The position numbers were made by a program, and so were the translations under genes. A stretch of DNA of 64,000 nucleotides. It comes from Candidatus Woesearchaeota archaeon (GTDB taxonomy: Archaea > Nanobdellota > Nanobdellia > Woesearchaeales > GW2011-AR4). The stretch spans positions 2,205 to 66,204 of the forward strand of contig JACOZN010000015.1 in NCBI GenBank assembly GCA_016181305.1, given 5' to 3'. Under the pieces are notes generated by a model, which searched no databases, was not told the origin of the DNA, and saw only the letters and a list, made by a program, of their open reading frames with translations. Shown here in pieces: positions 23,222-47,496 of the stretch (positions are counted from its first letter, which is position 1; every line of letters starts with the position of its first letter).

Positions 23222-24934
23222 ATGGCAAAGAAAGATTATTCCAATTGGTCAAAAGAAGAACTGGTTAGGGAGTTAAAGAAAGTTGAAAAGAGAAAAAAAT
23301 ATGGAATGGTTTGGGAAGACAAGCCCGAAAAAGTAGCTGAATTATGCAAAGAAAAACTGCCTGTCTTGGAAGAGGACACAAAGAAAGAAATTAAAACAGA
23401 CGATAAAAAGCCAGTCAATATTCTGATAGAAGGCGACAATTATCATGCTCTTTCTGTTTTGAACTACACCAATAAAGGATTAATTGATGTTATCTATATT
23501 GATCCTCCATACAATACAGGAAAAAAGAAAGAATGGAAATATAACGACCATTATGTTGACAAAGAAGACTCATACAGACACAGTAAATGGTTAGATTTTA
23601 TGAGTAAAAGACTAAAATTGGCTAAGCCTTTACTTCGTAATAATGGCTTGATATTTATCTCCATCGATGATAACGAGATAGCACAATTAAAATTATTGTG
23701 CGATTGGATATTTGGAGAAAAAAACTTAGTTGCAAATTTTGTTTGGAGGACTGCTGGTAATTTTGATAATCAAGCAAAAGTGAAGATTTGTCATGAATAT
23801 ATTTTGTGTTATGCGAAGAATATAAAAAACATTAAAGCTCCAAAGATAATTGACCCAAATATTGATGTTCAAAGTAAATTATTCAAAGACGAAATAAGAA
23901 ATACTATAGTAAAAAACGGGCCAAAAAACCCTATAAGCGAGATTAGGTTACCACCAGGGATGCCTGCTTCTTTTAAGGAAGGTGTTATAAAGAAGAGAGA
24001 CACTGCGTGGCCCCATTATGATAAGGATGCTATCGTGAAAGATTACCAATTACAAAATGAAATTCTAATTAAGAGTGGGTGGAGTTCAAAAAATTTGTTC
24101 GAGACTTTCTTGAATACCAGTTTTTCTCCAGTAGTTGATATTAAAGGACAAGAATCGTTGTTTGAAATTAGCACAACTGGAGCAATAGAAGTTGTGAAAA
24201 AAAGAAGTGAGGATCAGAGTCATGTTTTATCTGTCCTAACTAACCTTGGAAACACCCAGTCAACTAGCCAATTTTTGAAGAAAATTGGTGTGAGCTTTAC
24301 ATATCCAAAGCCAGTAGAGTTGATAAAATATCTTATCAATATGAATACTTCTAAAAACCCAGTAGTATTAGATTTCTTTGCTGGCTCTGGGACAACAGGA
24401 CAATCTCTTCTTGAGATTAATAAAGAATTTAAAAAAAATGGGAGGTTCATTCTTTGTACCAACAATGAAGATAGTAATGGAGATGGAAACAAGATACTTA
24501 GTGATATTTGCTATCCTAGACTAAAAAAAGTAATACGAGGTGATAGCTTCATAGCAAAGTTAGGGGGAAACCTCAAATATTTTAAAACTGATTTCGTCGA
24601 TGCTGGGCCAACAGACGAGAATAAACGTAAGATGGTTGATAAATCTACGGAAATGCTCTGCCTAAAAGAAGATTGCTTTGAAGAAGTCATGCAGAGTAAA
24701 AAATTCGGAATTTTCAAAAATGTCCAAGAAAAATATTTAGGAATAATCTATGATGATGACGGCATTGAGCCATTCAAGAAAGAAGCTAAAAAGTTAAAAA
24801 AGCAGTTTGTTGTGTATGTGTTCTCTCTTGATGAAAGCGCAAGAGAAGACGAGTTCGAAGATGTCTATGATTTGGTTGAGTTAAGGCCAATTCCGGCAGT
24901 CATACTAAACGTTTACAAGAGGATATTCAAATGA
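23222..24934 (+). CDS. mod: Type III-like RM DNA methyltransferase (Mod)
   Basis: LIEGDN, IYIDPPYNTG (motif IV), YPKPVEL, VLDFFAGSGTT (motif I). Confidence 0.92.
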   Translation: MAKKDYSNWSKEELVRELKKVEKRKKYGMVWEDKPEKVAELCKEKLPVLEEDTKKEIKTDDKKPVNILIEGDNYHALSVLNYTNKGLIDVIYIDPPYNTGKKKEWKYNDHYVDKEDSYRHSKWLDFMSKRLKLAKPLLRNNGLIFISIDDNEIAQLKLLCDWIFGEKNLVANFVWRTAGNFDNQAKVKICHEYILCYAKNIKNIKAPKIIDPNIDVQSKLFKDEIRNTIVKNGPKNPISEIRLPPGMPASFKEGVIKKRDTAWPHYDKDAIVKDYQLQNEILIKSGWSSKNLFETFLNTSFSPVVDIKGQESLFEISTTGAIEVVKKRSEDQSHVLSVLTNLGNTQSTSQFLKKIGVSFTYPKPVELIKYLINMNTSKNPVVLDFFAGSGTTGQSLLEINKEFKKNGRFILCTNNEDSNGDGNKILSDICYPRLKKVIRGDSFIAKLGGNLKYFKTDFVDAGPTDENKRKMVDKSTEMLCLKEDCFEEVMQSKKFGIFKNVQEKYLGIIYDDDGIEPFKKEAKKLKKQFVVYVFSLDESAREDEFEDVYDLVELRPIPAVILNVYKRIFK

Positions 24935-27114
24935 TAGAGTTAAGAGACTATCAGAAAAAGGCAGTTGAAAGTCTTAAATCCAAAGTCCAGAATGTTCTGA
25001 ATACTCCGGACAATGAAGTCGTTATTTTCCAAGCACCGACAGGAAGTGGCAAGACGGTTATGGTTTCTGAAATGCTTAAACAATTAGTTAAGGAGAACCA
25101 TAAAAGATACTCTTTTGTCTGGGTTTCTGTCAGAATGTTGCACGAGCAAAGCAAGGAGAAATTAGAGAAATATTACGAAGATGACAGGTTAATCCAATGC
25201 TCCTATTTTGAAGATTTGGATGACAGACAGATTGGGGAAAATGAGATTTTATTTATAAATTGGCACAGCATTAACAAGAAAGACATTAATATTTATGTCA
25301 GGGAAAACGAGCAGGACAATAACTTAAACGCAATTATCCAAAATACAAAAGAAGAAGGCAGAGAAATAATCTTAATCATAGATGAAAGCCATCATACTGC
25401 GAGTTCTGAAAAGTCAAAAGAATTAATTGAGACAATCGGGCCAAAAGTGACTATTGAAGTTTCAGCTACTCCACACTTAAAAGAAAATGTTTCTGAGATT
25501 GAAAGAGTACACATCTCACAAGTCAAAGCTGAAGAAATGATAAAATCAGAAATAGCAGTAAATCCCGAATTTATGGATATAAAAATTGGCTCAAAAAGTT
25601 CAGACGAGTTAATCATAGAACAAACATTAAAGAAAAGAGTGGAATTAGCAAAGTTTTATGAAAAAGAAGGCTCAAACATAAATCCACTTGTTCTTGTTCA
25701 GCTTCCAGACCAAAAAGGCAATTTAATCAACAAAAAAGACGATGTTGTAAAAATACTCAAAGACAAGTTCAAGATAACAGAAGAAAACGGAAAACTGGCA
25801 GTATGGCTTTCAGAAGAAAAAACCGATAATCTGGCCAATATTGACAAAAACGACAATGAAGTGGAAGTTTTAGTTTTCAAACAGGCCATAGCTCTAGGCT
25901 GGGATTGTCCGAGAGCACAAATTCTTGTCATTTTCAGAGAATCAAAAAGTTTCACATTTACCATTCAAACAATAGGCAGAATAATGAGAATGCCAGAATT
26001 GAAATACTACAATGAAGAGGATTTGAATAAAGGTTATGTCTTTACAAACCTGCCGAATATTGAGATTACAGAAGATTACGCAAAAGACTATGTTACAATT
26101 TATGAAGCAAAAAGAGACAGCAAACTCTACAAAGAAATTTCTCTGCCGTCCATTTTCCTGAAAAGGCAAAGGGAAAGAACAAGATTATCCGGGAAATTCG
26201 GAGATATTTTTATGAAAGTGGCAGAAGAAATAAATCTCCAGAAGAAGATTACTACCAAGCCATCAAGAACAGTAAGCCCGATTATTGCTGATGGCAGAAT
26301 TGTAAACATTGACCAATTGGGAGAAATTGAAAGGAAAGGACAGATTGAAGTCCAACTCAATTTAACAGAATTGCAGCAGTTATTTGACAAGTTTATCGCC
26401 GACAACTGCACGCCATACGCACCAGCAGATTCAAGCGATAGAATGAAAACAGCAATTTACAACTTCTTCACACAAAAATACAAACTCAGAAAGTTTGATC
26501 CGCAAGCCCAAAGAATAGTCTTAGGAAAGGAAAACGTGCAGGCATTCGTAGATATCATTAACATAGCAAAAGAACGCTACAAAAAAGAAGTTGTAGAGAA
26601 AATAAATGAAAAGCGAGAGAAAAAAGAAATACCCAAATGGGAGGTTCCTGTTATCATCAGTTATAACAGCAGATATTCCAAAGAAGAGCATCCGACTTCG
26701 ATAATGAAGCCATTTTACACCAAGAAGCCAAGTGAGCCGGAAAGAAAGTTTATAGAATTGCTCAATAAATCAAAAAAGGTGAAATGGTGGTTCAAGAATG
26801 GTGAAACCGAGATAAAGTATTTCGCTGTTCCATATATTGACGAAAACGGCTTTGAGAGAGCGTTCTATGTTGATTTTATCGTGCAGTTTACAGATGGCTC
26901 TATCGGCCTGTTTGACACAAAAGGCGGAATGACTGCAAAAGATGCAGGGTCAAGAGCCGAAGGATTGCAGAAATATCTCAAGAAAAATAAAGATAAGAAA
27001 GTTTGGGGCGGAATTGCTATTTTTGTAAATGGAACATGGCGTTACAATGACAAAGAAACATATGAGTATAATCTTAATGACTTGTCGAGTTGGAAGATAT
27101 TAGATATTATATAG
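24931..27114 (+). CDS. res: Type III-like restriction subunit (SF2 helicase + C-terminal nuclease)
   Basis: QAPTGSGKT, IIDESHH, GWDCPRA, QTIGRIMR, FYVDFIV...FDTKG; ATGA overlap with mod. Confidence 0.88.
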   Translation: MIELRDYQKKAVESLKSKVQNVLNTPDNEVVIFQAPTGSGKTVMVSEMLKQLVKENHKRYSFVWVSVRMLHEQSKEKLEKYYEDDRLIQCSYFEDLDDRQIGENEILFINWHSINKKDINIYVRENEQDNNLNAIIQNTKEEGREIILIIDESHHTASSEKSKELIETIGPKVTIEVSATPHLKENVSEIERVHISQVKAEEMIKSEIAVNPEFMDIKIGSKSSDELIIEQTLKKRVELAKFYEKEGSNINPLVLVQLPDQKGNLINKKDDVVKILKDKFKITEENGKLAVWLSEEKTDNLANIDKNDNEVEVLVFKQAIALGWDCPRAQILVIFRESKSFTFTIQTIGRIMRMPELKYYNEEDLNKGYVFTNLPNIEITEDYAKDYVTIYEAKRDSKLYKEISLPSIFLKRQRERTRLSGKFGDIFMKVAEEINLQKKITTKPSRTVSPIIADGRIVNIDQLGEIERKGQIEVQLNLTELQQLFDKFIADNCTPYAPADSSDRMKTAIYNFFTQKYKLRKFDPQAQRIVLGKENVQAFVDIINIAKERYKKEVVEKINEKREKKEIPKWEVPVIISYNSRYSKEEHPTSIMKPFYTKKPSEPERKFIELLNKSKKVKWWFKNGETEIKYFAVPYIDENGFERAFYVDFIVQFTDGSIGLFDTKGGMTAKDAGSRAEGLQKYLKKNKDKKVWGGIAIFVNGTWRYNDKETYEYNLNDLSSWKILDII

Positions 27115-27132
27115 CTAAGTAATTCGTATGGG

Positions 27133-28158
27133 GTGGTTCAGATGTCATCAAAAGAAATAATGAAAAAAATCACTGATTTTATGCCAGAGTTTAAGAACAG
27201 AATAGATGAAATCTCGATAGAAGATATAGAACCTAACCCTTTTAACCCCAGAAAGAAGTTTAGTCAAGAAAAAGAGGATGAACTTATAGAATCTATTGCC
27301 CAGATGAAAATTGTACTTCAGCCAATTATAGTTTATGAAAAAATCCGTAAACAAGAGAAGAAATACATAATTCTTGACGGACAAAGAAGGTATCAAGCGT
27401 GTAAGAAACTCGGAATTGATAAAATTCCTGCCCATATTCTGGTAAAGGAACCAACTTATGTTGAAAATTTATCAATTATGTTCCACATCCATAATGTTCA
27501 TGAAGATTGGACCGATTTAGCTATTTCTACCACAATACCAGAGTTATGTCGAGAATTGGAAATTGATCCTCAACATCCAACTAAAGAAGGTATGCAGAAT
27601 ATTAAAAAATTAACCTCGCTATCAATGTATAAGCTTAAGAAATACTTTGATGTCTTAACTTATTCTGATGAAATTATTAAAGAATTCAGAGAAGCAGAGT
27701 TAAAAGAAAAACCAGATTTAGATGTGGATATTTTATCTGAATTAAAAAGCCCCTTGAAAAAAATTAGGGCACTTATGTCATCTTCTATGAAAATAGAGTA
27801 TTCAAAAGAGAAAATTGTTAAGATTATTGTTGAAAAAAAGAAAAACAAAGTAATTACAACAAACAAACAAATAAGAAAATTATCAAAAATTGCTATGAAT
27901 GTAAACAGGGGGAAAGTCAATAAACAAGTTGCAATTGAGAGAATTAAAGATTTTCTCGACAACAAAGAAGTTACAATTGATGATATCTATTCAGACACAT
28001 CTGAGGCAATTGAACAAGCAAAAGGTATAATCAAGAATTCTGAAAAATTACGGAAGGAAATAGATAACATTGATTTAAGGAAATTGCCCAATGAAGATAA
28101 GAAGAGTCTAAGTACCGAACTAAAAAATCTTAATGAGTCTATTAAAAGAAAGTTTTAG
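27133..28158 (+). CDS. ParB/Srx N-terminal domain protein
   Basis: IEPNPFNPRKKF, LQPIIV, ILDGQRRYQAC. Confidence 0.8.
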   Translation: MVQMSSKEIMKKITDFMPEFKNRIDEISIEDIEPNPFNPRKKFSQEKEDELIESIAQMKIVLQPIIVYEKIRKQEKKYIILDGQRRYQACKKLGIDKIPAHILVKEPTYVENLSIMFHIHNVHEDWTDLAISTTIPELCRELEIDPQHPTKEGMQNIKKLTSLSMYKLKKYFDVLTYSDEIIKEFREAELKEKPDLDVDILSELKSPLKKIRALMSSSMKIEYSKEKIVKIIVEKKKNKVITTNKQIRKLSKIAMNVNRGKVNKQVAIERIKDFLDNKEVTIDDIYSDTSEAIEQAKGIIKNSEKLRKEIDNIDLRKLPNEDKKSLSTELKNLNESIKRKF

Positions 28159-29330: not shown

Positions 29331-29338
29331 TTTTTAAA
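29331..29338 (+). promoter_or_regulatory. TATA box of the 5S rRNA gene
   Basis: TTTTTAAA located 23 nt before the 5S 5' end. Confidence 0.55.
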
Positions 29339-29361
29339 GCGCCTTTTCTTCCTCTTTGCCT

Positions 29362-29501
29362 TGGACGGCCATAGGGGCTTGGTTCACCCGATCCCATCCC
29401 GAACTCGGATTAGGTTAAGGAGTTGGCCTACGAGAGAGTTAAGCAAGCCTCCGTTTCCAGTCGTACTGTACTTACGTACGGGAGCCTGGAAAAGCTGTCC
29501 A
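29362..29501 (+). rRNA. rrf: 5S rRNA gene containing a 27-nt insert (29410-29436)
   Basis: Helix I TGGACGGC/GCTGTCCA, GGCCATAG, ACCCGATCCCATCCCGAACTCGGA, AGTTAAG, helix II GGGGCTTG/CAAGCCTC, helix V TTTCCAG/CTGGAAA. Confidence 0.95.
29410..29436 (+). other. Putative bulge-helix-bulge mini-intron in 5S rRNA
   Basis: Inner 8-bp hairpin TAGGTTAA/TTGGCCTA, bulge GA^T, 4-bp central helix CTCG/CGAG, bulge AG^A; joining the exons gives CTCGGA-AGTTAAG. Confidence 0.75.
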
Positions 29502-29507
29502 CCTTTA

Positions 29508-30185
29508 TTATTCGAATGGGATCATCAACTCCATCTTTATTTTTTTAAATTCTTCAACATTTCTAGAATTAGCCCCATACGATTTAACCATCAAATCCAG
29601 TTTTCTTGCTTTTTTTGGATGTTTAAAATATATTTCCTCTTTAAATTTTATTATATTCTCTTTTCCTGTAATACTCAACACATAAGAATTATCTTTTATG
29701 CTATTTGGCTTAGTCCTAATTATCTTGTTAGAGTTTATGTCAAAGTCAAGAAGCATTAGTTTAACTTCTTCCAATAACTTTAGTGAATTTGAGGTTAATG
29801 TTATGTTCCTTTTCCACTCATTGCCCTTAAAAAATAATCTCAAGGCCGCGCAACCTTCATCATCATACAAAGCTCTCAAATATTCTTTTTGAACCTGTTT
29901 ATCAGCACTTTTTATGGAATTTGGTATATACAATACATCACTTCTGAAATCAGGAAGATGCTCCAAGAATTTATGTATTATCCTATTTCCATGTATTTGT
30001 AAAAATTTAACCCCAGAATTATTTTTTCCATGACTAAACTTTATATCACCAAATTCCGTAATAATATCATTTTTAAATTCTTCAAGCAAAACTTCACAGG
30101 TATTGCTGTAACGTATATATCTATAATATAAATTACCATCACCACTTATTTTAGCCAAGCATCTTGCGAAATTCTTTGAAATCAT
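29508..30185 (-). CDS. Two-motif LAGLIDADG homing endonuclease
   Basis: [11 protein letters not shown] and [10 protein letters not shown] helices; AT-rich; the stop abuts the 5S 3' end. Confidence 0.85.
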
Positions 30186-30376
30186 TTAAATCACTGATTC
30201 CTTGATGTTGAAACTGCGTAAATGATTTTGGTTTAAATATTATATGTGAGAATGTCCAGTGCTTATTTTCTATATAGAAAACAAAAATCATAATTTGGTA
30301 ATTGAGACTTACCTTAAGTGATTTAAATGTAGAATGAAGCAAGATGTAATGGCTTTAAGTGATTGTTTTATTATTA

Positions 30377-30446
30377 AGTTAAGCAAGCCTCCGTTTCCAG
30401 TCGTACTGTGCTCAGCACGGGAGCCTGGAAAAGCTGTCCACCTTTA
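30377..30446 (+). pseudogene. Orphan duplicate 3' half of 5S rRNA
   Basis: Direct repeat of 29437-29507: 33 and 30 identical nt flank a helix IV tip that differs (ACTTACGT vs GCTCAGC). Confidence 0.92.
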
Positions 30447-31244
30447 CTTTAATTTCTCCAAATCCTTATTGGAATGAATATGGATCTCCTTCTCGGAGCT
30501 TAAATGCCCGTTCAACAGCCCTTTCTCCGCAAGCTGCGGAAAAACGCTGAATTCAAGGCTTGCGCCCGAGTACTCAAAAATCTGGGGCTCGGCGACGAAT
30601 ATCGGGGAAAACACAAGGTATATGTCGGATTTTTTCGGCTTCTGCGTGAAAGTCAGAACCCTGTTGCCCTCGACCCTCACAGTGCCTTTCTCGCTCGGCT
30701 TTGGTGATGTTGTAAGCATTATGGTTGCAATGGCGTTCTGCTTTATGTGGTCGCTCCAAAGCTCGTCTATGTTTATCTTGCTGAATACAATGTCCCCATA
30801 GACAACAAGAAAGTTCGCGCCTATCTTTCCTTTCAGGAGCCTCAGGGAGTCTGCTGTGCCGCCTGAAGCGCGCTCCTCAATGTAGCTGATCTTTACCCCG
30901 TATTCCGCTCCGTCCTTCAGCAGTTCAAACAGCCTGGTGAGCAGCCTGTGCCTTGCCACGATGCAGATTGTCTTGAAGTTGTTTTCCCTCAGCTTTTTTA
31001 TCGCCAGCTCAATGACAGCAGCATTCCTTATTCTTGCAGTCGGCCTGTACTCTCCCTTTGAGACTGCGAGATGCTCCTCGCTGCCTCCAAGAAGAATGAC
31101 TGCTGTCTTGTTTTTCCCCAGGGAATTCTTTACAAGATGCTCTATTGCCTGGCTCCGGTTCCTTACATAAATATTGTCTATGATGGAGTCTATGTCCTGC
31201 AGCGTCTTTTTGCTTATGGTTATTGAGATCTTCGCTTTGGGCAT
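30444..31244 (-). CDS. CopG/RHH DNA-binding domain fused to a degenerate NTP-transferase domain
   Basis: KISITISKKTLQDID...NRSQAIE; VILLGG, GGTADSL, LVVYGDIVF. Confidence 0.75.
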   Translation of the reverse strand: MPKAKISITISKKTLQDIDSIIDNIYVRNRSQAIEHLVKNSLGKNKTAVILLGGSEEHLAVSKGEYRPTARIRNAAVIELAIKKLRENNFKTICIVARHRLLTRLFELLKDGAEYGVKISYIEERASGGTADSLRLLKGKIGANFLVVYGDIVFSKINIDELWSDHIKQNAIATIMLTTSPKPSEKGTVRVEGNRVLTFTQKPKKSDIYLVFSPIFVAEPQIFEYSGASLEFSVFPQLAEKGLLNGHLSSEKEIHIHSNKDLEKLK

Positions 31245-31245
31245 T

Positions 31246-31836
31246 TTAAGGCCTTAGCCACCTGCATTCATAGTAAGTAACGTCCATCTCAGAATCAACA
31301 ATTCCCAGCAATAATCTTTTCTTTGTGGAATGCGCAACACGATTTTTTGCGGCAAACTCGTACCATGTCAGCGTAGAGCCTTCATGGACAGGGAAAACAA
31401 CCCATCTTGCATGGTCTTCTCCCGGCTTCACGCCCCTGTCATAAATCCTGAAATCTGCGCCGAACTTCAGGGCTGTCTTTATTATGTAGCCCCTGTTCCT
31501 TATGTCCCTGTAGACGCAATACCTGACCCAGAAGTTCGGCTCTATCTTTTGCGCCTTTTTCAGGAATGTTTCAAAATCAATCGGCTTGTTCCTTGAGTCA
31601 TGAATAATTGCCCTTTTCTTTTCAAGCAAATAAAGCGATTCAATCAGGGAAAGCTGCACCCTGCCGTCATCCAAAAGCTCCCCGTACCTGCTTTGGTTAT
31701 AGAGCTCCCTAGCATTGTCCGAGCTTTCTGTAAGCACTCGTTCCTTTGAAAGATATGCTTTGACAGGCTCCTTGTGCTCCTTAAGTTCTTTGTCTTCCTT
31801 CTTCGGAAGAATTTCTTCCTTTTTCTTGGCTGTCAT
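31246..31836 (-). CDS. endA: tRNA splicing endonuclease (catalytic unit)
   Basis: VYRDIRNRGY, KFGADFRIY (Tyr), EDHA (His), AHSTKK (Lys). Confidence 0.93.
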   Translation of the reverse strand: MTAKKKEEILPKKEDKELKEHKEPVKAYLSKERVLTESSDNARELYNQSRYGELLDDGRVQLSLIESLYLLEKKRAIIHDSRNKPIDFETFLKKAQKIEPNFWVRYCVYRDIRNRGYIIKTALKFGADFRIYDRGVKPGEDHARWVVFPVHEGSTLTWYEFAAKNRVAHSTKKRLLLGIVDSEMDVTYYECRWLRP

Positions 31837-47373: not shown

Positions 47374-47496
47374 TGCGGGGAGAAGGATTCGAACCCCCGT
47401 AGGCACTAAGCCAGTAGATGACTTAGGAATTGCATCACAGCACTCTTTGAGCACTCCGCTTGAGTCTACCCCGTTTGGCCGCTCCGGCATCCCCGC
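47374..47496 (-). tRNA. tRNA-Leu(CAA) with a 39-nt intron at position 37/38 (47420-47458)
   Basis: GCGGGGA/TCCCCGC acceptor, GTAGA-CTCAAG|A-TCTAC, long variable arm, TTCGAAT; relaxed BHB motif. Confidence 0.93.

What the first reader, a model, noticed from the sequence alone, without database searches (positions are those of the whole stretch)
29401..29443. Bulge-helix-bulge mini-intron in a 5S rRNA gene
Seen: a 27-nt insert (29410-29436) sits inside the conserved GAAC.CGGAAGTTAAG motif. It folds as inner hairpin 29411-29430, 3-nt bulge G-A-T, 4-bp helix CTCG/CGAG and 3-nt bulge A-G-A. The outer helix is weak (A-G mismatch, then A-T and G-T). Known: EndA cuts after the second base of each bulge. 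Applied here, that rule joins GGA to AGTTAAG and restores the consensus exactly. BHB introns are known in archaeal tRNA, 16S, 23S and some mRNAs; I know of no spliced 5S intron (the Halococcus 5S insertion is retained). The tRNA-Leu intron here also has an imperfect BHB, so this EndA probably tolerates relaxed motifs.
Basis: partly seen in the sequence, partly recalled or inferred. Interest (0 to 1): 0.85.

Follow-up and report, generated by a model that had tools for sequence, protein, structure and literature searches.

The report
Spliced mini-intron in 5S rRNA gene
The only 5S ribosomal RNA gene of this tiny groundwater archaeon (Woesearchaeota) is interrupted by 27 bases shaped like a tRNA-type intron, and about 50 related genomes carry similar inserts, which would be the first introns described in 5S rRNA, though no RNA data could be checked.

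Summary
Window 29361-29503 is the genome's only 5S rRNA gene. A 27-nt insert (29410-29436) drops it below Rfam's threshold.

[quoted passage not shown] Only the outer helix is weak. Cutting after the second bulge base gives a 116-nt RNA that folds as a canonical 5S.

About 50 Woesearchaeal 5S genes carry such inserts at four sites within 13 nt of helix III/loop C.
- At the cut sites that restore the consensus, 31 of 33 distinct inserts meet strict BHB geometry (0.05 expected by chance).
- In 32 of 32 distinct genes with an insert at this site, the exon bases covary with both their helix III partner and the insert.

EndA and RtcB are encoded. The same cut rule reproduces this genome's tRNA and rtcB mRNA splice sites.

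Inserts at this site are also linked to an antisense free-standing LAGLIDADG nuclease gene and a relic copy of the 5S 3' half, which suggests a homing cassette.

No publication on 5S introns was found. Verdict: very probably a spliced BHB intron, a new variant of a known kind.

The parts
29332..29339 (+). TATA-like box TTTTTAAA, 22-29 nt upstream of the 5S 5' end
   Evidence: Read from the sequence. Its promoter role is inferred from the usual spacing of archaeal promoters.
29361..29409 (+). 5S rRNA exon 1 (49 nt): helix I and II 5' strands, helix III 5' strand, loop C, up to ...CTCGGA
   Evidence: RF00001 match over model positions 1-120. Aligns with intronless 5S genes of the same genus (A2).
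29404..29407 (+). Exon strand (CTCG) of the 4-bp BHB central helix. In the mature RNA the same bases pair with CCGA of helix III.
   Evidence: Paired in 100% of 14 distinct genes with an insert at this site, with changes on both sides at 2 of 4 pairs. Three-way covariation holds in 32 of 32.
29408..29410 (+). 5' three-nt bulge G-A-T. The predicted cut lies between 29409 and 29410.
   Evidence: Geometry. The same rule gives the 37/38 sites in the genome's own tRNAs.
29410..29436 (+). 27-nt BHB mini-intron
   Evidence: Absent from 6 intronless 5S genes of the same genus and present at this site in 32 distinct genes. Removing it gives a canonical 116-nt 5S.
29411..29430 (+). Inner helix h' of the intron: 8 bp closed by a GGAG loop
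   Evidence: Folds in every prediction. All 6 scored pairs show compensatory changes across relatives.
29431..29434 (+). Intron strand (CGAG) of the central helix
29435..29437 (+). 3' three-nt bulge A-G-A. The predicted cut lies between 29436 and 29437. It is flanked outward only by an A.G mismatch and then 2 bp.
   Evidence: the outer helix has 2 conserved pairs next to an invariant mismatch.
29437..29503 (+). 5S rRNA exon 2 (67 nt), followed by the T-rich stretch TTTATTATT
29508..30185 (-). Free-standing LAGLIDADG homing endonuclease gene (225 aa), convergent with the 5S gene and starting 5 nt after its 3' end
   Evidence: Pfam LAGLIDADG_3, E 3e-15. Both motifs are invariant in 11 homologs. 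The predicted fold (pLDDT 87.8) matches I-DmoI and I-Tsp061I. Homologs sit in the same place and orientation in 13 genomes that carry an insert at this site.
30186..30376 (.). Conserved spacer between the nuclease start codon and the relic. Holds a TATA-like TTTAAATA and the long-range inverted repeat TTAAATCAC / GTGATTTAA.
   Evidence: Alignments A4 and A7. Function unknown.
30377..30446 (+). Relic second copy of the 5S 3' half. It begins exactly at the splice junction AGTTAAGC and abuts the next gene.
   Evidence: Direct repeats at 97-100% identity. Intronless relatives have the 5S 3' end directly against the same 266-aa gene. Relics in various states of decay occur in G014, G022, G004, G017, L080, L086 and L090.
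30444..31244 (-). Nucleotidyl-transferase gene (266 aa). It serves as the synteny anchor showing that the relic is the original 5S 3' end.
   Evidence: Pfam NTP_transferase. Same neighbour in the intronless G027 and in relatives with inserts at the loop C or GAA|C sites.
31246..31836 (-). EndA, the RNA-splicing endonuclease (196 aa, N-terminal and catalytic domains). It is the only copy in the assembly.
   Evidence: PF01974 at 96.5 bits and PF02778 at 56.6 bits. Single hit in the genome. Closest solved chains are the N. equitans alpha subunit 3IEY_A and M. jannaschii 1A79, with Tyr/His/Lys aligned.
47374..47496 (-). tRNA-Leu(CAA) gene with a 39-nt intron at 37/38. Its BHB central helix has one mismatch (3/4).
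   Evidence: ARAGORN in intron mode on the genome and the geometry check.

Best explanation
The 27 nt at 29410-29436 are an archaeal bulge-helix-bulge (BHB) intron inside the only 5S rRNA gene of a Woesearchaeota (DPANN) archaeon.

Proposed mechanism (inferred):
1. In the primary transcript, the exon bases CUCG pair with CGAG at the 3' end of the insert. In the mature RNA those same exon bases form the 3' strand of helix III.
2. This 4-bp helix stacks on the insert's 8-bp hairpin and leaves two 3-nt bulges.
3. The splicing endonuclease EndA, encoded 1.7 kb away, cuts after the second base of each bulge.
4. RtcB joins ...CUCGGA to AGUUAAG... and probably circularises the 27-mer.
5. The released exon strand then re-pairs with CCGA to form helix III of a normal 116-nt 5S rRNA.

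The motif is of the relaxed type: the central and inner helices are strong and the outer helix is weak.

The insert is one member of a population of selfish mini-introns. They occupy four sites within 13 nt of helix III/loop C in Woesearchaeal 5S genes.

Inserts at this particular site travel with a free-standing LAGLIDADG nuclease gene and a replacement 3' exon. The most likely reason is that the nuclease cuts intronless 5S genes at this site and the intron protects its carrier.

Shown: the sequence anatomy, the covariation, the distribution, the presence of the enzymes, and the linkage to the nuclease gene.
Inferred: actual cleavage, ligation and circularisation, and the nuclease's target.
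For: (1) Anatomy. The 4/4 central helix, two 3-nt bulges and 8-bp inner helix sit exactly at the boundaries that restore the 5S consensus.

(2) Statistics. 31 of 33 distinct inserts meet strict BHB criteria at the consensus-restoring sites, against 0.05 expected from shuffled inserts. The background hit rate is 0.2%.

(3) Covariation at this site.
- The central helix is paired in 100% of 14 distinct sequences, with changes on both sides at 2 of 4 pairs. The inner helix shows compensatory changes at 6 of 6 pairs.
- Across 32 distinct genes the exon bases covary with both the helix III partner and the insert, with no exception. The three states are CCCGA/CTCG/CGAG in 21, CCCGT/CACG/CGTG in 9 and CCTGT/CACA/TGTG in 2.
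- The switch happened at least three times inside otherwise near-identical intron subfamilies: G022 versus G017, G001 versus G016, and G362 versus L077.
- The competing minimum-energy helix AACUC/GAGUU is broken in the CACG variants. The BHB helix is not.

(4) Other sites. Inserts after CCCAT, after CCCGAA and one base upstream of this site obey the same rule. Their helices are matched to each local exon: TCCC/GGGG, CCCG/CGGG, CTCG/CGAG, TTCG/CGAA, ACAC/GTGT and ACCC/GGGT.

(5) The spliced product. It is 116 nt, 93% identical to the intronless G010 gene, and its minimum-energy fold is the canonical 5S Y shape. The BHB conformer of the precursor lies only 2.7 kcal/mol above its minimum.

(6) Sole copy. 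The interrupted gene is the only 5S match in the own genome. The same holds for near-complete relatives: G036 at 93%, G021 at 99%, G016 at 92% and G001 at 90% completeness.

(7) Machinery. EndA has its catalytic triad aligned and RtcB is present.

(8) Controls in the same genome. The identical cut rule gives the 37/38 sites in tRNA-Tyr, Thr and His, including imperfect 3/4 helices in Leu, Thr and Ser. It also removes a 31-nt insert from rtcB and restores MPDGHWGYGFPIGG. ARAGORN finds introns in 14 of the 19 tRNAs it detects.

(9) Shared intron family. Loop C inserts of G008 and G009 share a module of about 37 nt with tRNA-Thr and tRNA-His introns of this genome.

(10) Literature. PMC5829648 reports DPANN alpha4-type EndAs associated with highly disrupted tRNA genes.
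Against: There are no RNA data.

The outer helix is weak: an invariant A.G mismatch followed by only 2 bp. The 3' cut site therefore lies in a relaxed context. Plain alpha4 EndAs such as the M. jannaschii enzyme are described as strict (PMC5829648). In the alignment to N. equitans EndA, this protein lacks the 6-residue insertion seen there. I could not establish that it carries a specificity-broadening loop.

The BHB conformer is not the predicted minimum-energy fold of the precursor.

The assembly is only 78% complete, so a second intronless 5S gene cannot be strictly excluded for this genome.
Confidence: 0.85

Rival explanations
1. Retained expansion segment. The 27 nt stay in the mature 5S rRNA as an extra hairpin projecting from helix III, like the 108-nt insertion of Halococcus morrhuae.
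For: Expanded 5S rRNAs with retained insertions exist in Halobacteriales and some Firmicutes (PMC7812874 and PMC7530397). The insert forms a stable self-contained hairpin. The site lies at the bulged AA of helix III, where a protrusion might be tolerated.
Against: A retained hairpin gives no reason for its 3' flank to pair with the helix III strand over exactly 4 bp. It also gives no reason for that pairing to covary with the exon in 32 of 32 genes, or for 3-nt bulges to lie exactly where cutting restores the consensus. That pairing competes with helix III itself. The same geometry recurs at four different sites with unrelated insert sequences. The loop C inserts share a sequence module with genuine tRNA introns.
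Confidence: 0.06
2. Excision without ligation. EndA (or another RNase) removes the insert, but the two halves are not rejoined, so the ribosome carries a 5S rRNA in two pieces held together by helices I-III.
For: Fragmented rRNAs produced by removal of intervening sequences are known in bacteria (cited in PMC7812874). The two 5S halves would stay base-paired.
Against: EndA products (2',3'-cyclic phosphate and 5'-OH) are the standard RtcB substrates. This genome's many intron-bearing tRNAs require the ligase anyway, and an RtcB reading frame of 395 aa is present. The exact restoration of the consensus junction at all four sites suggests selection on the joined product.
Confidence: 0.05
3. Dead gene. 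The interrupted 5S is a pseudogene disabled by insertion of the nuclease cassette, and the working 5S lies in the unassembled 22% of the genome.
For: The assembly is 78% complete. A relic 5S fragment lies 870 bp downstream. One relative, G369, has both an intronless and an interrupted copy. One relative, G026, has a truncated interrupted copy.
Against: The interrupted gene is the only 5S in relatives that are 90-99% complete. Its exons are conserved with compensatory changes in helices IV and V across about 50 genes. It keeps a TATA-like box and a T-rich terminator.
Confidence: 0.02
4. One long intron. The true gene is exon 1 (29361-29409) joined to the downstream copy (30377-30446). The 967 nt between them, including the nuclease gene, are spliced out as in rRNA introns of Thermoproteales.
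For: The downstream copy begins exactly at the junction. Archaeal rRNA introns often carry LAGLIDADG genes, and the nuclease's predicted fold matches I-DmoI and I-Tsp061I.
Against: There is no BHB at the 3' boundary. The four bases that would have to pair with CTCG are TTAT (30371-30374), giving 2 of 4 pairs. The nuclease gene is antisense. A T-rich terminator follows copy 1. In other genomes the relic is decaying or absent while copy 1 stays intact.
Confidence: 0.01

Closest known systems
Small non-coding BHB introns of archaeal 16S/23S rRNA genes (Thermoproteales, Desulfurococcales) and non-canonical tRNA introns of the relaxed HBh' type
   Same: The insert is short and non-coding. A 4-bp helix formed between exon and intron is flanked by two 3-nt bulges. 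Removal is predicted to be by EndA and RtcB. Presence or absence varies among close relatives. Several introns can sit in one gene. The exon part of the helix switches partner after splicing.
   Different: The host gene is 5S rRNA, for which I found no intron report in any domain. A dedicated survey of prokaryotic 5S insertions lists only Halobacteriales among archaea and treats those as expansion segments (PMC7812874). The lineage is DPANN, not TACK. The four sites cluster within 13 nt.
Collaborative homing of a free-standing homing endonuclease and an ORF-less intron (F-CphI and the psbA group I intron of cyanophage S-PM2; Zeng, Bonocora and Shub 2009, as described in PMC6083498; also T4 mobE/I-TevIII, PMC2790892)
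   Same: An intron without an ORF sits in a conserved gene, with a free-standing nuclease gene immediately beside it. Every genome with the nuclease has the intron, but not the reverse: 13 of 13 against about 13 of 33.
   Different: Here the intron is protein-spliced (BHB), not self-splicing, and the host is an archaeon, not a phage. The nuclease is a monomeric LAGLIDADG enzyme. The cassette also carries a replacement 3' exon and leaves the resident 3' half as a relic. The nuclease's target site has not been tested.
Intron-encoded archaeal LAGLIDADG endonucleases I-DmoI and I-Tsp061I (in 23S/16S rRNA BHB introns)
   Same: The predicted fold of the 225-aa protein matches them (TM-score normalised to the target 0.69-0.76). 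It has two LAGLIDADG motifs with conserved acidic residues and is associated with an rRNA gene carrying a BHB intron.
   Different: The gene lies outside the intron, on the opposite strand, downstream of the rRNA gene. Sequence similarity to any solved structure is undetectable.
Expansion segments of 5S rRNA (Halococcus morrhuae 108-nt insertion; Stepanov and Fox 2021)
   Same: Extra nucleotides lie inside a 5S gene that standard models under-score or miss.
   Different: Those insertions are retained and form helices that do not compete with the core. Here the insert pairs with a core strand in BHB geometry, and that pairing covaries.

Membership tests
Archaeal BHB (EndA/RtcB-spliced) intron | Central 4-bp helix formed between exon and intron sequence | tested here: met
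   CTCG 29404-29407 pairs with CGAG 29431-29434. The helix is 4/4 in 34 of 36 inserts and 100% paired in 14 distinct genes with an insert at this site.
Archaeal BHB (EndA/RtcB-spliced) intron | Two 3-nt bulges on opposite strands, with cuts after the second base giving a functional exon junction | tested here: met
   The bulges are GAT and AGA. The predicted product CTCGGA+AGTTAAG equals the consensus. The rule was validated on the genome's own tRNAs and on rtcB.
Archaeal BHB (EndA/RtcB-spliced) intron | Flanking helices on both sides (outer h and inner h') for the strict hBHBh' form | tested here: inconclusive
   The inner helix has 8 bp. The outer helix has an invariant A.G mismatch and then 2 conserved bp. 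Alternatively the base of native helix III pairs across a 16-nt loop. This fits the relaxed HBh' form, not the strict one.
Archaeal BHB (EndA/RtcB-spliced) intron | Evolutionary conservation of the motif by compensatory change | tested here: met
   There were at least three independent switches between CTCG/CGAG and CACG/CGTG.
Archaeal BHB (EndA/RtcB-spliced) intron | Splicing endonuclease and RNA ligase encoded by the organism | tested here: met
   EndA. RtcB, although that gene is itself interrupted.
Archaeal BHB (EndA/RtcB-spliced) intron | The insert is absent from the mature RNA; a circular intron is detectable | not testable with these tools
5S rRNA expansion segment | The insertion folds on its own without competing with core helices | tested here: not met
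   The 3' end of the insert pairs with the helix III 3' strand, and this pairing covaries with the exon in 32 of 32 genes.
5S rRNA expansion segment | The insertion is retained in ribosomal 5S rRNA | not testable with these tools
   No RNA or ribosome data were available.
Collaborative homing (free-standing nuclease plus ORF-less intron) | A free-standing nuclease gene directly adjacent to the intron-bearing gene, co-distributed with the intron | tested here: met
   The nuclease gene lies 4-125 nt after the 5S 3' end, always antisense, in 13 genomes, all of which carry an insert at this site. It is found next to no intronless 5S and no 5S with inserts only at the loop C or GAA|C sites.
Collaborative homing (free-standing nuclease plus ORF-less intron) | The nuclease cuts the intronless allele at or near the intron insertion site, and the intron blocks cutting | not testable with these tools
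   This needs a biochemical assay. There is only indirect support: the relic 3' halves begin at or near the junction.
Intron-encoded LAGLIDADG homing (I-DmoI type) | The nuclease ORF lies inside the BHB intron in sense orientation | tested here: not met
   The ORF at 29508-30185 is downstream of the gene and on the minus strand. No BHB closes a long intron.

The most novel reading that the evidence does not exclude
Woesearchaeal 5S rRNA genes host the first introns known for 5S rRNA. Those at this site are the RNA half of a homing cassette not described before.

In this reading, a free-standing I-DmoI-like LAGLIDADG nuclease cuts intronless 5S genes at the CGGA|AGTT junction. Repair copies in a package consisting of a protein-spliced BHB mini-intron, a replacement 3' exon with its terminator, and the antisense nuclease gene. 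The resident 3' half is left behind as a decaying relic.

The mini-intron serves as the carrier's immunity, because it splits the nuclease's target, and EndA removes it from the RNA. This would be collaborative homing in Archaea that uses a host-spliced intron.

It might also explain why four intron sites crowd into 13 nt of helix III/loop C: each would be an alternative way of breaking the same target.
Probability: 0.4. Interest if true: 0.85.

Novelty: new variant of a known kind. Interest (0 to 1): 0.74.

Why it matters
If the insert is spliced, four consequences follow.

- **Scope of BHB splicing.** 5S rRNA joins tRNA, 16S/23S rRNA and a few mRNAs as a substrate of the archaeal tRNA-splicing machinery. 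In these DPANN archaea, ribosome assembly would then depend on EndA and RtcB for all three rRNA size classes.
- **Annotation.** It explains why 5S genes are scored below threshold or reported missing in many Woesearchaeota genomes. RF00001 misses or under-scores genes with one or two inserts.
- **A model substrate.** The gene is a compact natural example of an RNA that must switch one strand between two partners: the intron before splicing and helix III after it. The three-way covariation is clean enough to use as a model.
- **Intron spread.** The link to a free-standing LAGLIDADG gene and a duplicated exon gives a testable route by which protein-spliced introns, which have no mobility machinery of their own, spread between genomes.

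For enzymology, the weak outer helix makes this a good substrate for asking how a single-gene alpha4-like DPANN EndA handles relaxed motifs.

Tried and rejected
- **RNA evidence.** No reads could be laid on the junction, and no other route to transcript data was available.
- **Default scans.** The Rfam gathering scan and default ARAGORN found nothing in the window. An E-value scan and intron-mode ARAGORN on the genome were needed.
- **First alignment.** Alignment A1 mixed strands, because loci from minus-strand hits are not re-oriented. It was redone as A2.
- **Competing helix.** The minimum-energy fold of the local region prefers AACUC/GAGUU, shifted by one register. I rejected it as the conserved structure because it is broken in the CACG variants, whereas the BHB helix is compensated.
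- **Long-intron reading.** Joining exon 1 to the relic is rejected. There is no BHB at 30371-30376, the nuclease gene is antisense, and a terminator follows copy 1.
- **Other copies of the insert.** A search of the genome for further copies of the 27-nt intron found only chance 11-13-mers.
- **Nucleases at the other sites.** I looked for nuclease genes next to 5S genes with inserts at the loop C or GAA|C sites and found none. The 266-aa transferase gene follows directly.
- **Nuclease versus solved structures.** A sequence search of the nuclease against PDB chains found nothing. The fold search was needed.
- **EndA specificity loop.** I could not place the 'L3' loop of PMC5829648 from the text, so the EndA specificity class is unresolved.
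- **Spacer 30186-30376.** Rfam gave only chance snoRNA-like hits.
- **BHB scan of rtcB.** The scan was noisy in AT-rich sequence, with about 45 hits. Only the two hits that restore conserved RtcB motifs were accepted.
- **Metagenome scan.** I did not use it. A spliced-looking 5S there could not be told from an intronless allele.
Full report
**1. What is there**

An E-value Rfam scan places a complete 5S rRNA at window 29361-29503 (+). It scores 35.4 bits, below the gathering score of 38, because about 25 nt are inserted in helix III. This is why the default scan reported nothing.

The sequence reads ...CCCGAACTCGGA | TTAGGTTAAGGAGTTGGCCTACGAGAG | AGTTAAGC.... The insert is 29410-29436.
- inner hairpin 29411-29430 (8 bp, GGAG loop)
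- bulge GAT 29408-29410
- helix CTCG 29404-29407 with CGAG 29431-29434
- bulge AGA 29435-29437
- a weak outer helix (A.G mismatch, then A-T and G-T)

This is the only 5S match in the assembly, which has 1.07 Mb in 22 contigs and is 78% complete. Labels on near-identical contigs of relatives, and earlier notes of this scan, place the organism among groundwater Woesearchaeota (DPANN).

**2. Comparative picture**

*Frequency.* In the same genus, 6 genomes have uninterrupted 5S genes of 115-117 nt and 20 have longer genes. In an even sample of the order, 18 of 351 genomes with a detectable 5S have a long gene.

*Four insertion sites within 13 nt:*
- after CCCAT in loop C
- after CCCGAA
- after CTCGGA, the site in this window
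- one base upstream of that site

Some genes carry two inserts, one in loop C and one at this site (G001, G016, G038, G009 and others).

*Spread.* A pattern scan of one genome per GTDB species found an insert at this site in 33 archaeal records. All are Woesearchaeota or Nanoarchaeia by label or sequence. A few contigs are mislabelled as Methanosarcinales or Portnoybacteria. Five further hits in bacteria are unrelated chance matches. In total about 50 distinct interrupted 5S genes were seen.

**3. Is it a BHB?**

I coded the canonical geometry. The 5' exon ends at p and the intron ends at q. The central helix pairs p-5..p-2 with q-5..q-2. The bulges are p-1..p+1 and q-1..q+1.

*Control on known introns.* On this genome's own tRNAs the rule returns the canonical 37/38 positions. 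The central helix is 4/4 in Tyr, Thr(CGT) and His, and 3/4 in Leu(CAA), Thr(UGU) and Ser. Applied to the interrupted rtcB gene, it removes 31 nt and restores the universal motif MPDGHWGYGFPIGG. A second insert restores DINCGMRLV.

*Result on the 5S genes.*
- The boundaries that restore the 5S consensus coincide with a 4/4 central helix in 34 of 36 inserts, with 3-nt bulges and inner helices of 4-9 bp.
- Of 33 distinct inserts, 31 meet strict criteria. Shuffled inserts give 0.05 expected. The background rate of BHB-like positions is 0.2%.

**4. Covariation**

On 14 distinct BHBs at this site:
- The central helix is paired in 100% of cells. Two of its four pairs change on both sides (U-A to A-U in 6 sequences, G-C to A-U in 1).
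- All six scored inner pairs show compensatory changes.
- Sliding the partner strand by one to three columns drops pairing from 81% to 15-54%.

Across 32 distinct genes with an insert at this site, the exon bases have two alternative partners that both covary, with no exception:

| Helix III 5' strand | Exon | Insert | Genes |
|---|---|---|---|
| CCCGA | CTCG | CGAG | 21 |
| CCCGT | CACG | CGTG | 9 |
| CCTGT | CACA | TGTG | 2 |

The switch occurred at least three times within otherwise near-identical intron subfamilies. At the other sites the insert's 3' end matches whatever the local exon is: TCCC/GGGG, TCTC/GGGA, CCCG/CGGG, CTCG/CGAG, TTCG/CGAA, ACAC/GTGT and ACCC/GGGT.

A retained expansion hairpin gives no reason for a 4-bp pairing that competes with helix III. 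A splice signal does.

**5. Product and energetics**

Removing 29410-29436 gives a 116-nt RNA. It is 93% identical to the intronless G010 gene, and its minimum-energy fold is the canonical 5S Y shape.

In the precursor, the BHB conformer lies 2.7 kcal/mol above the minimum-energy fold. It is compatible with native helices I and II forming at the same time.

The unconstrained local fold prefers a register-shifted helix, AACUC/GAGUU. That helix is broken in the CACG variants, so it is not what evolution conserves.

The weak point is the outer helix. It consists of an invariant A.G mismatch and then two conserved pairs. The 3' cut site is therefore in a relaxed context of the HBh' type.

**6. Machinery**

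- EndA (31246-31836, minus strand, 196 aa) has both Pfam domains and is the only copy in the assembly.
- It aligns best with the N. equitans catalytic subunit and the M. jannaschii alpha4 enzyme, with Tyr/His/Lys in place.
- RtcB is present.
- PMC5829648 reports that alpha4-type EndAs of DPANN lineages go with heavily disrupted tRNA genes. I could not decide whether this protein has the loop held responsible.
- The genome clearly depends on permissive splicing. ARAGORN finds only 19 tRNAs, and 14 of them have introns.

**7. The larger element**

An earlier first-reader note (e1-5236834) pointed to a cassette, and I tested it.
- *Nuclease gene.* Five nt after the 5S 3' end lies an antisense 225-aa LAGLIDADG gene (29508-30185). 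Both motifs (GDG and YDDEG) are invariant in 11 homologs of 46-76% identity. The predicted fold (pLDDT 87.8) matches the archaeal intron-encoded enzymes I-DmoI and I-Tsp061I.
- *Relic.* At 30377-30446 there is a second copy of the 5S 3' half, starting exactly at the splice junction.
- *Which copy is original.* In intronless relatives, and in those with inserts only at the other sites, the 5S 3' end abuts the same 266-aa transferase gene that here abuts the second copy. The second copy is therefore the original 3' half. The intron, the first 3' half, the nuclease gene and the spacer were inserted at the junction.
- *Distribution.* Homologs of the nuclease occupy the same position and orientation in 13 genomes, all with an insert at this site. 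None lies next to any other kind of 5S gene.
- *Relics in relatives.* They range from complete to 15 nt and always keep the extreme 3' end. In G004 the relic differs from the active copy by compensatory changes in helices IV and V. It therefore came from a different functional 5S lineage.

This pattern is what collaborative homing predicts (PMC6083498): the nuclease is never found without the intron, but the intron is often found without the nuclease. The nuclease's target has not been tested.

**8. Rivals**

- A retained expansion segment is the main alternative. It is contradicted by sections 3 and 4 but cannot be excluded without RNA.
- Excision without ligation, a dead gene, and a single 967-nt intron are each less likely. 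The reasons are given under the rival explanations.

**9. Novelty**

- Full-text searches found no paper describing a 5S rRNA intron.
- The dedicated survey of prokaryotic 5S insertions lists only Halobacteriales among archaea. It explicitly leaves open whether untested insertions are excised.
- A survey of CPR bacteria found no insertions of 100 bp or more in 5S genes.
- Earlier AI notes of this scan reached a similar reading for a loop C insert in another Woesearchaeon. They also describe BHB-flanked permuted 5S genes in Asgard archaea. These notes are leads, not independent evidence.

I rate the finding a new variant of a known kind. The splicing system is known. What is new is the host RNA, the clustered sites, and the cassette with an external antisense nuclease gene and a duplicated exon.

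**10. Limits**

- No transcript data were available.
- EndA substrate range is inferred.
- The assembly is incomplete.
- Boundaries were chosen as the best BHB among at most a few consensus-restoring options. The pair counts therefore lean slightly towards the structure. The shuffle and slide controls address this.

Noticed in passing
window 29508-30446: A free-standing antisense LAGLIDADG nuclease gene, a conserved spacer and a relic copy of the 5S 3' half follow the interrupted 5S gene. The same layout occurs in G014, G022, G004 and G017, and in decayed form in more distant Woesearchaeota.
   Followed up: yes
window 30186-30376: The 190-nt spacer upstream of the nuclease gene is well conserved among genomes whose nuclease proteins are only 70-76% identical. 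It contains a long-range inverted repeat (TTAAATCAC ... GTGATTTAA) and a second one (AATGATTTT ... AAAATCAT). Rfam gives only chance hits and there is little covariation.
   Followed up: partly
G000 contig C1:23228-23258 and 23292-23323 (outside the window): The rtcB ligase gene is interrupted by two short inserts with strict BHB geometry. Removing them restores the conserved motifs PDGHWGYGFPIGG and DINCGMRLV. Between the two motifs the assembled gene still lacks about 20 codons.
   Followed up: partly
G000 C16:34596-34666 (tRNA-Thr CGU intron), C19:17557-17743 (tRNA-His intron), C5:2262-2311; 5S genes of G008 (L029) and G009 (L109): A module of about 37 nt, AACCTTTTTGC..GCAAAAAGCTTNACCAAAA, is shared by tRNA introns of this genome and by the loop C introns of the 5S genes of two relatives. 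This suggests one intron family moves between tRNA and 5S genes. The module is hairpin-like and of low complexity, so the similarity needs care.
   Followed up: partly
L108 (G026:C36) = L083, from position 1501: A 5S gene with two inserts is truncated after ...CCGTTTCTGCGTGTA and runs straight into an ORF beginning MKISVIGVGYVGL, which looks like a UDP-glucose dehydrogenase. It is either a 5' relic or a rearranged gene.
   Followed up: no
whole genome G000: ARAGORN in intron mode finds only 19 tRNA genes, 14 of them with introns. Many tRNAs are probably missed because they carry several or non-canonical introns.
   Followed up: no
L107 (MHMT01000023.1), L071, L074, L099, L100, L102: One contig carrying a Woesearchaeal interrupted 5S and the nuclease gene is filed under a 'Candidatus Portnoybacteria' (CPR) MAG. 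It is identical over this region to a Nanoarchaeia MAG, so it is probably mis-binned. Several others are filed under 'uncultured Methanosarcinales', which is probably a wrong label.
   Followed up: no
G369: C10:27235-27347 and C25:8183-8313: One genome of the order holds both an intronless 5S and, at a contig end, a 5S with two inserts. This is either two alleles or strains in one bin, or a true second copy.
   Followed up: no
window 24931-28158: Upstream of the 5S gene lie a 727-aa ResIII/DEAD helicase-like gene and a 341-aa protein with a ParB N-terminal domain (weak GmrSD_N similarity). This may be a defence or mobile-element module.
   Followed up: no
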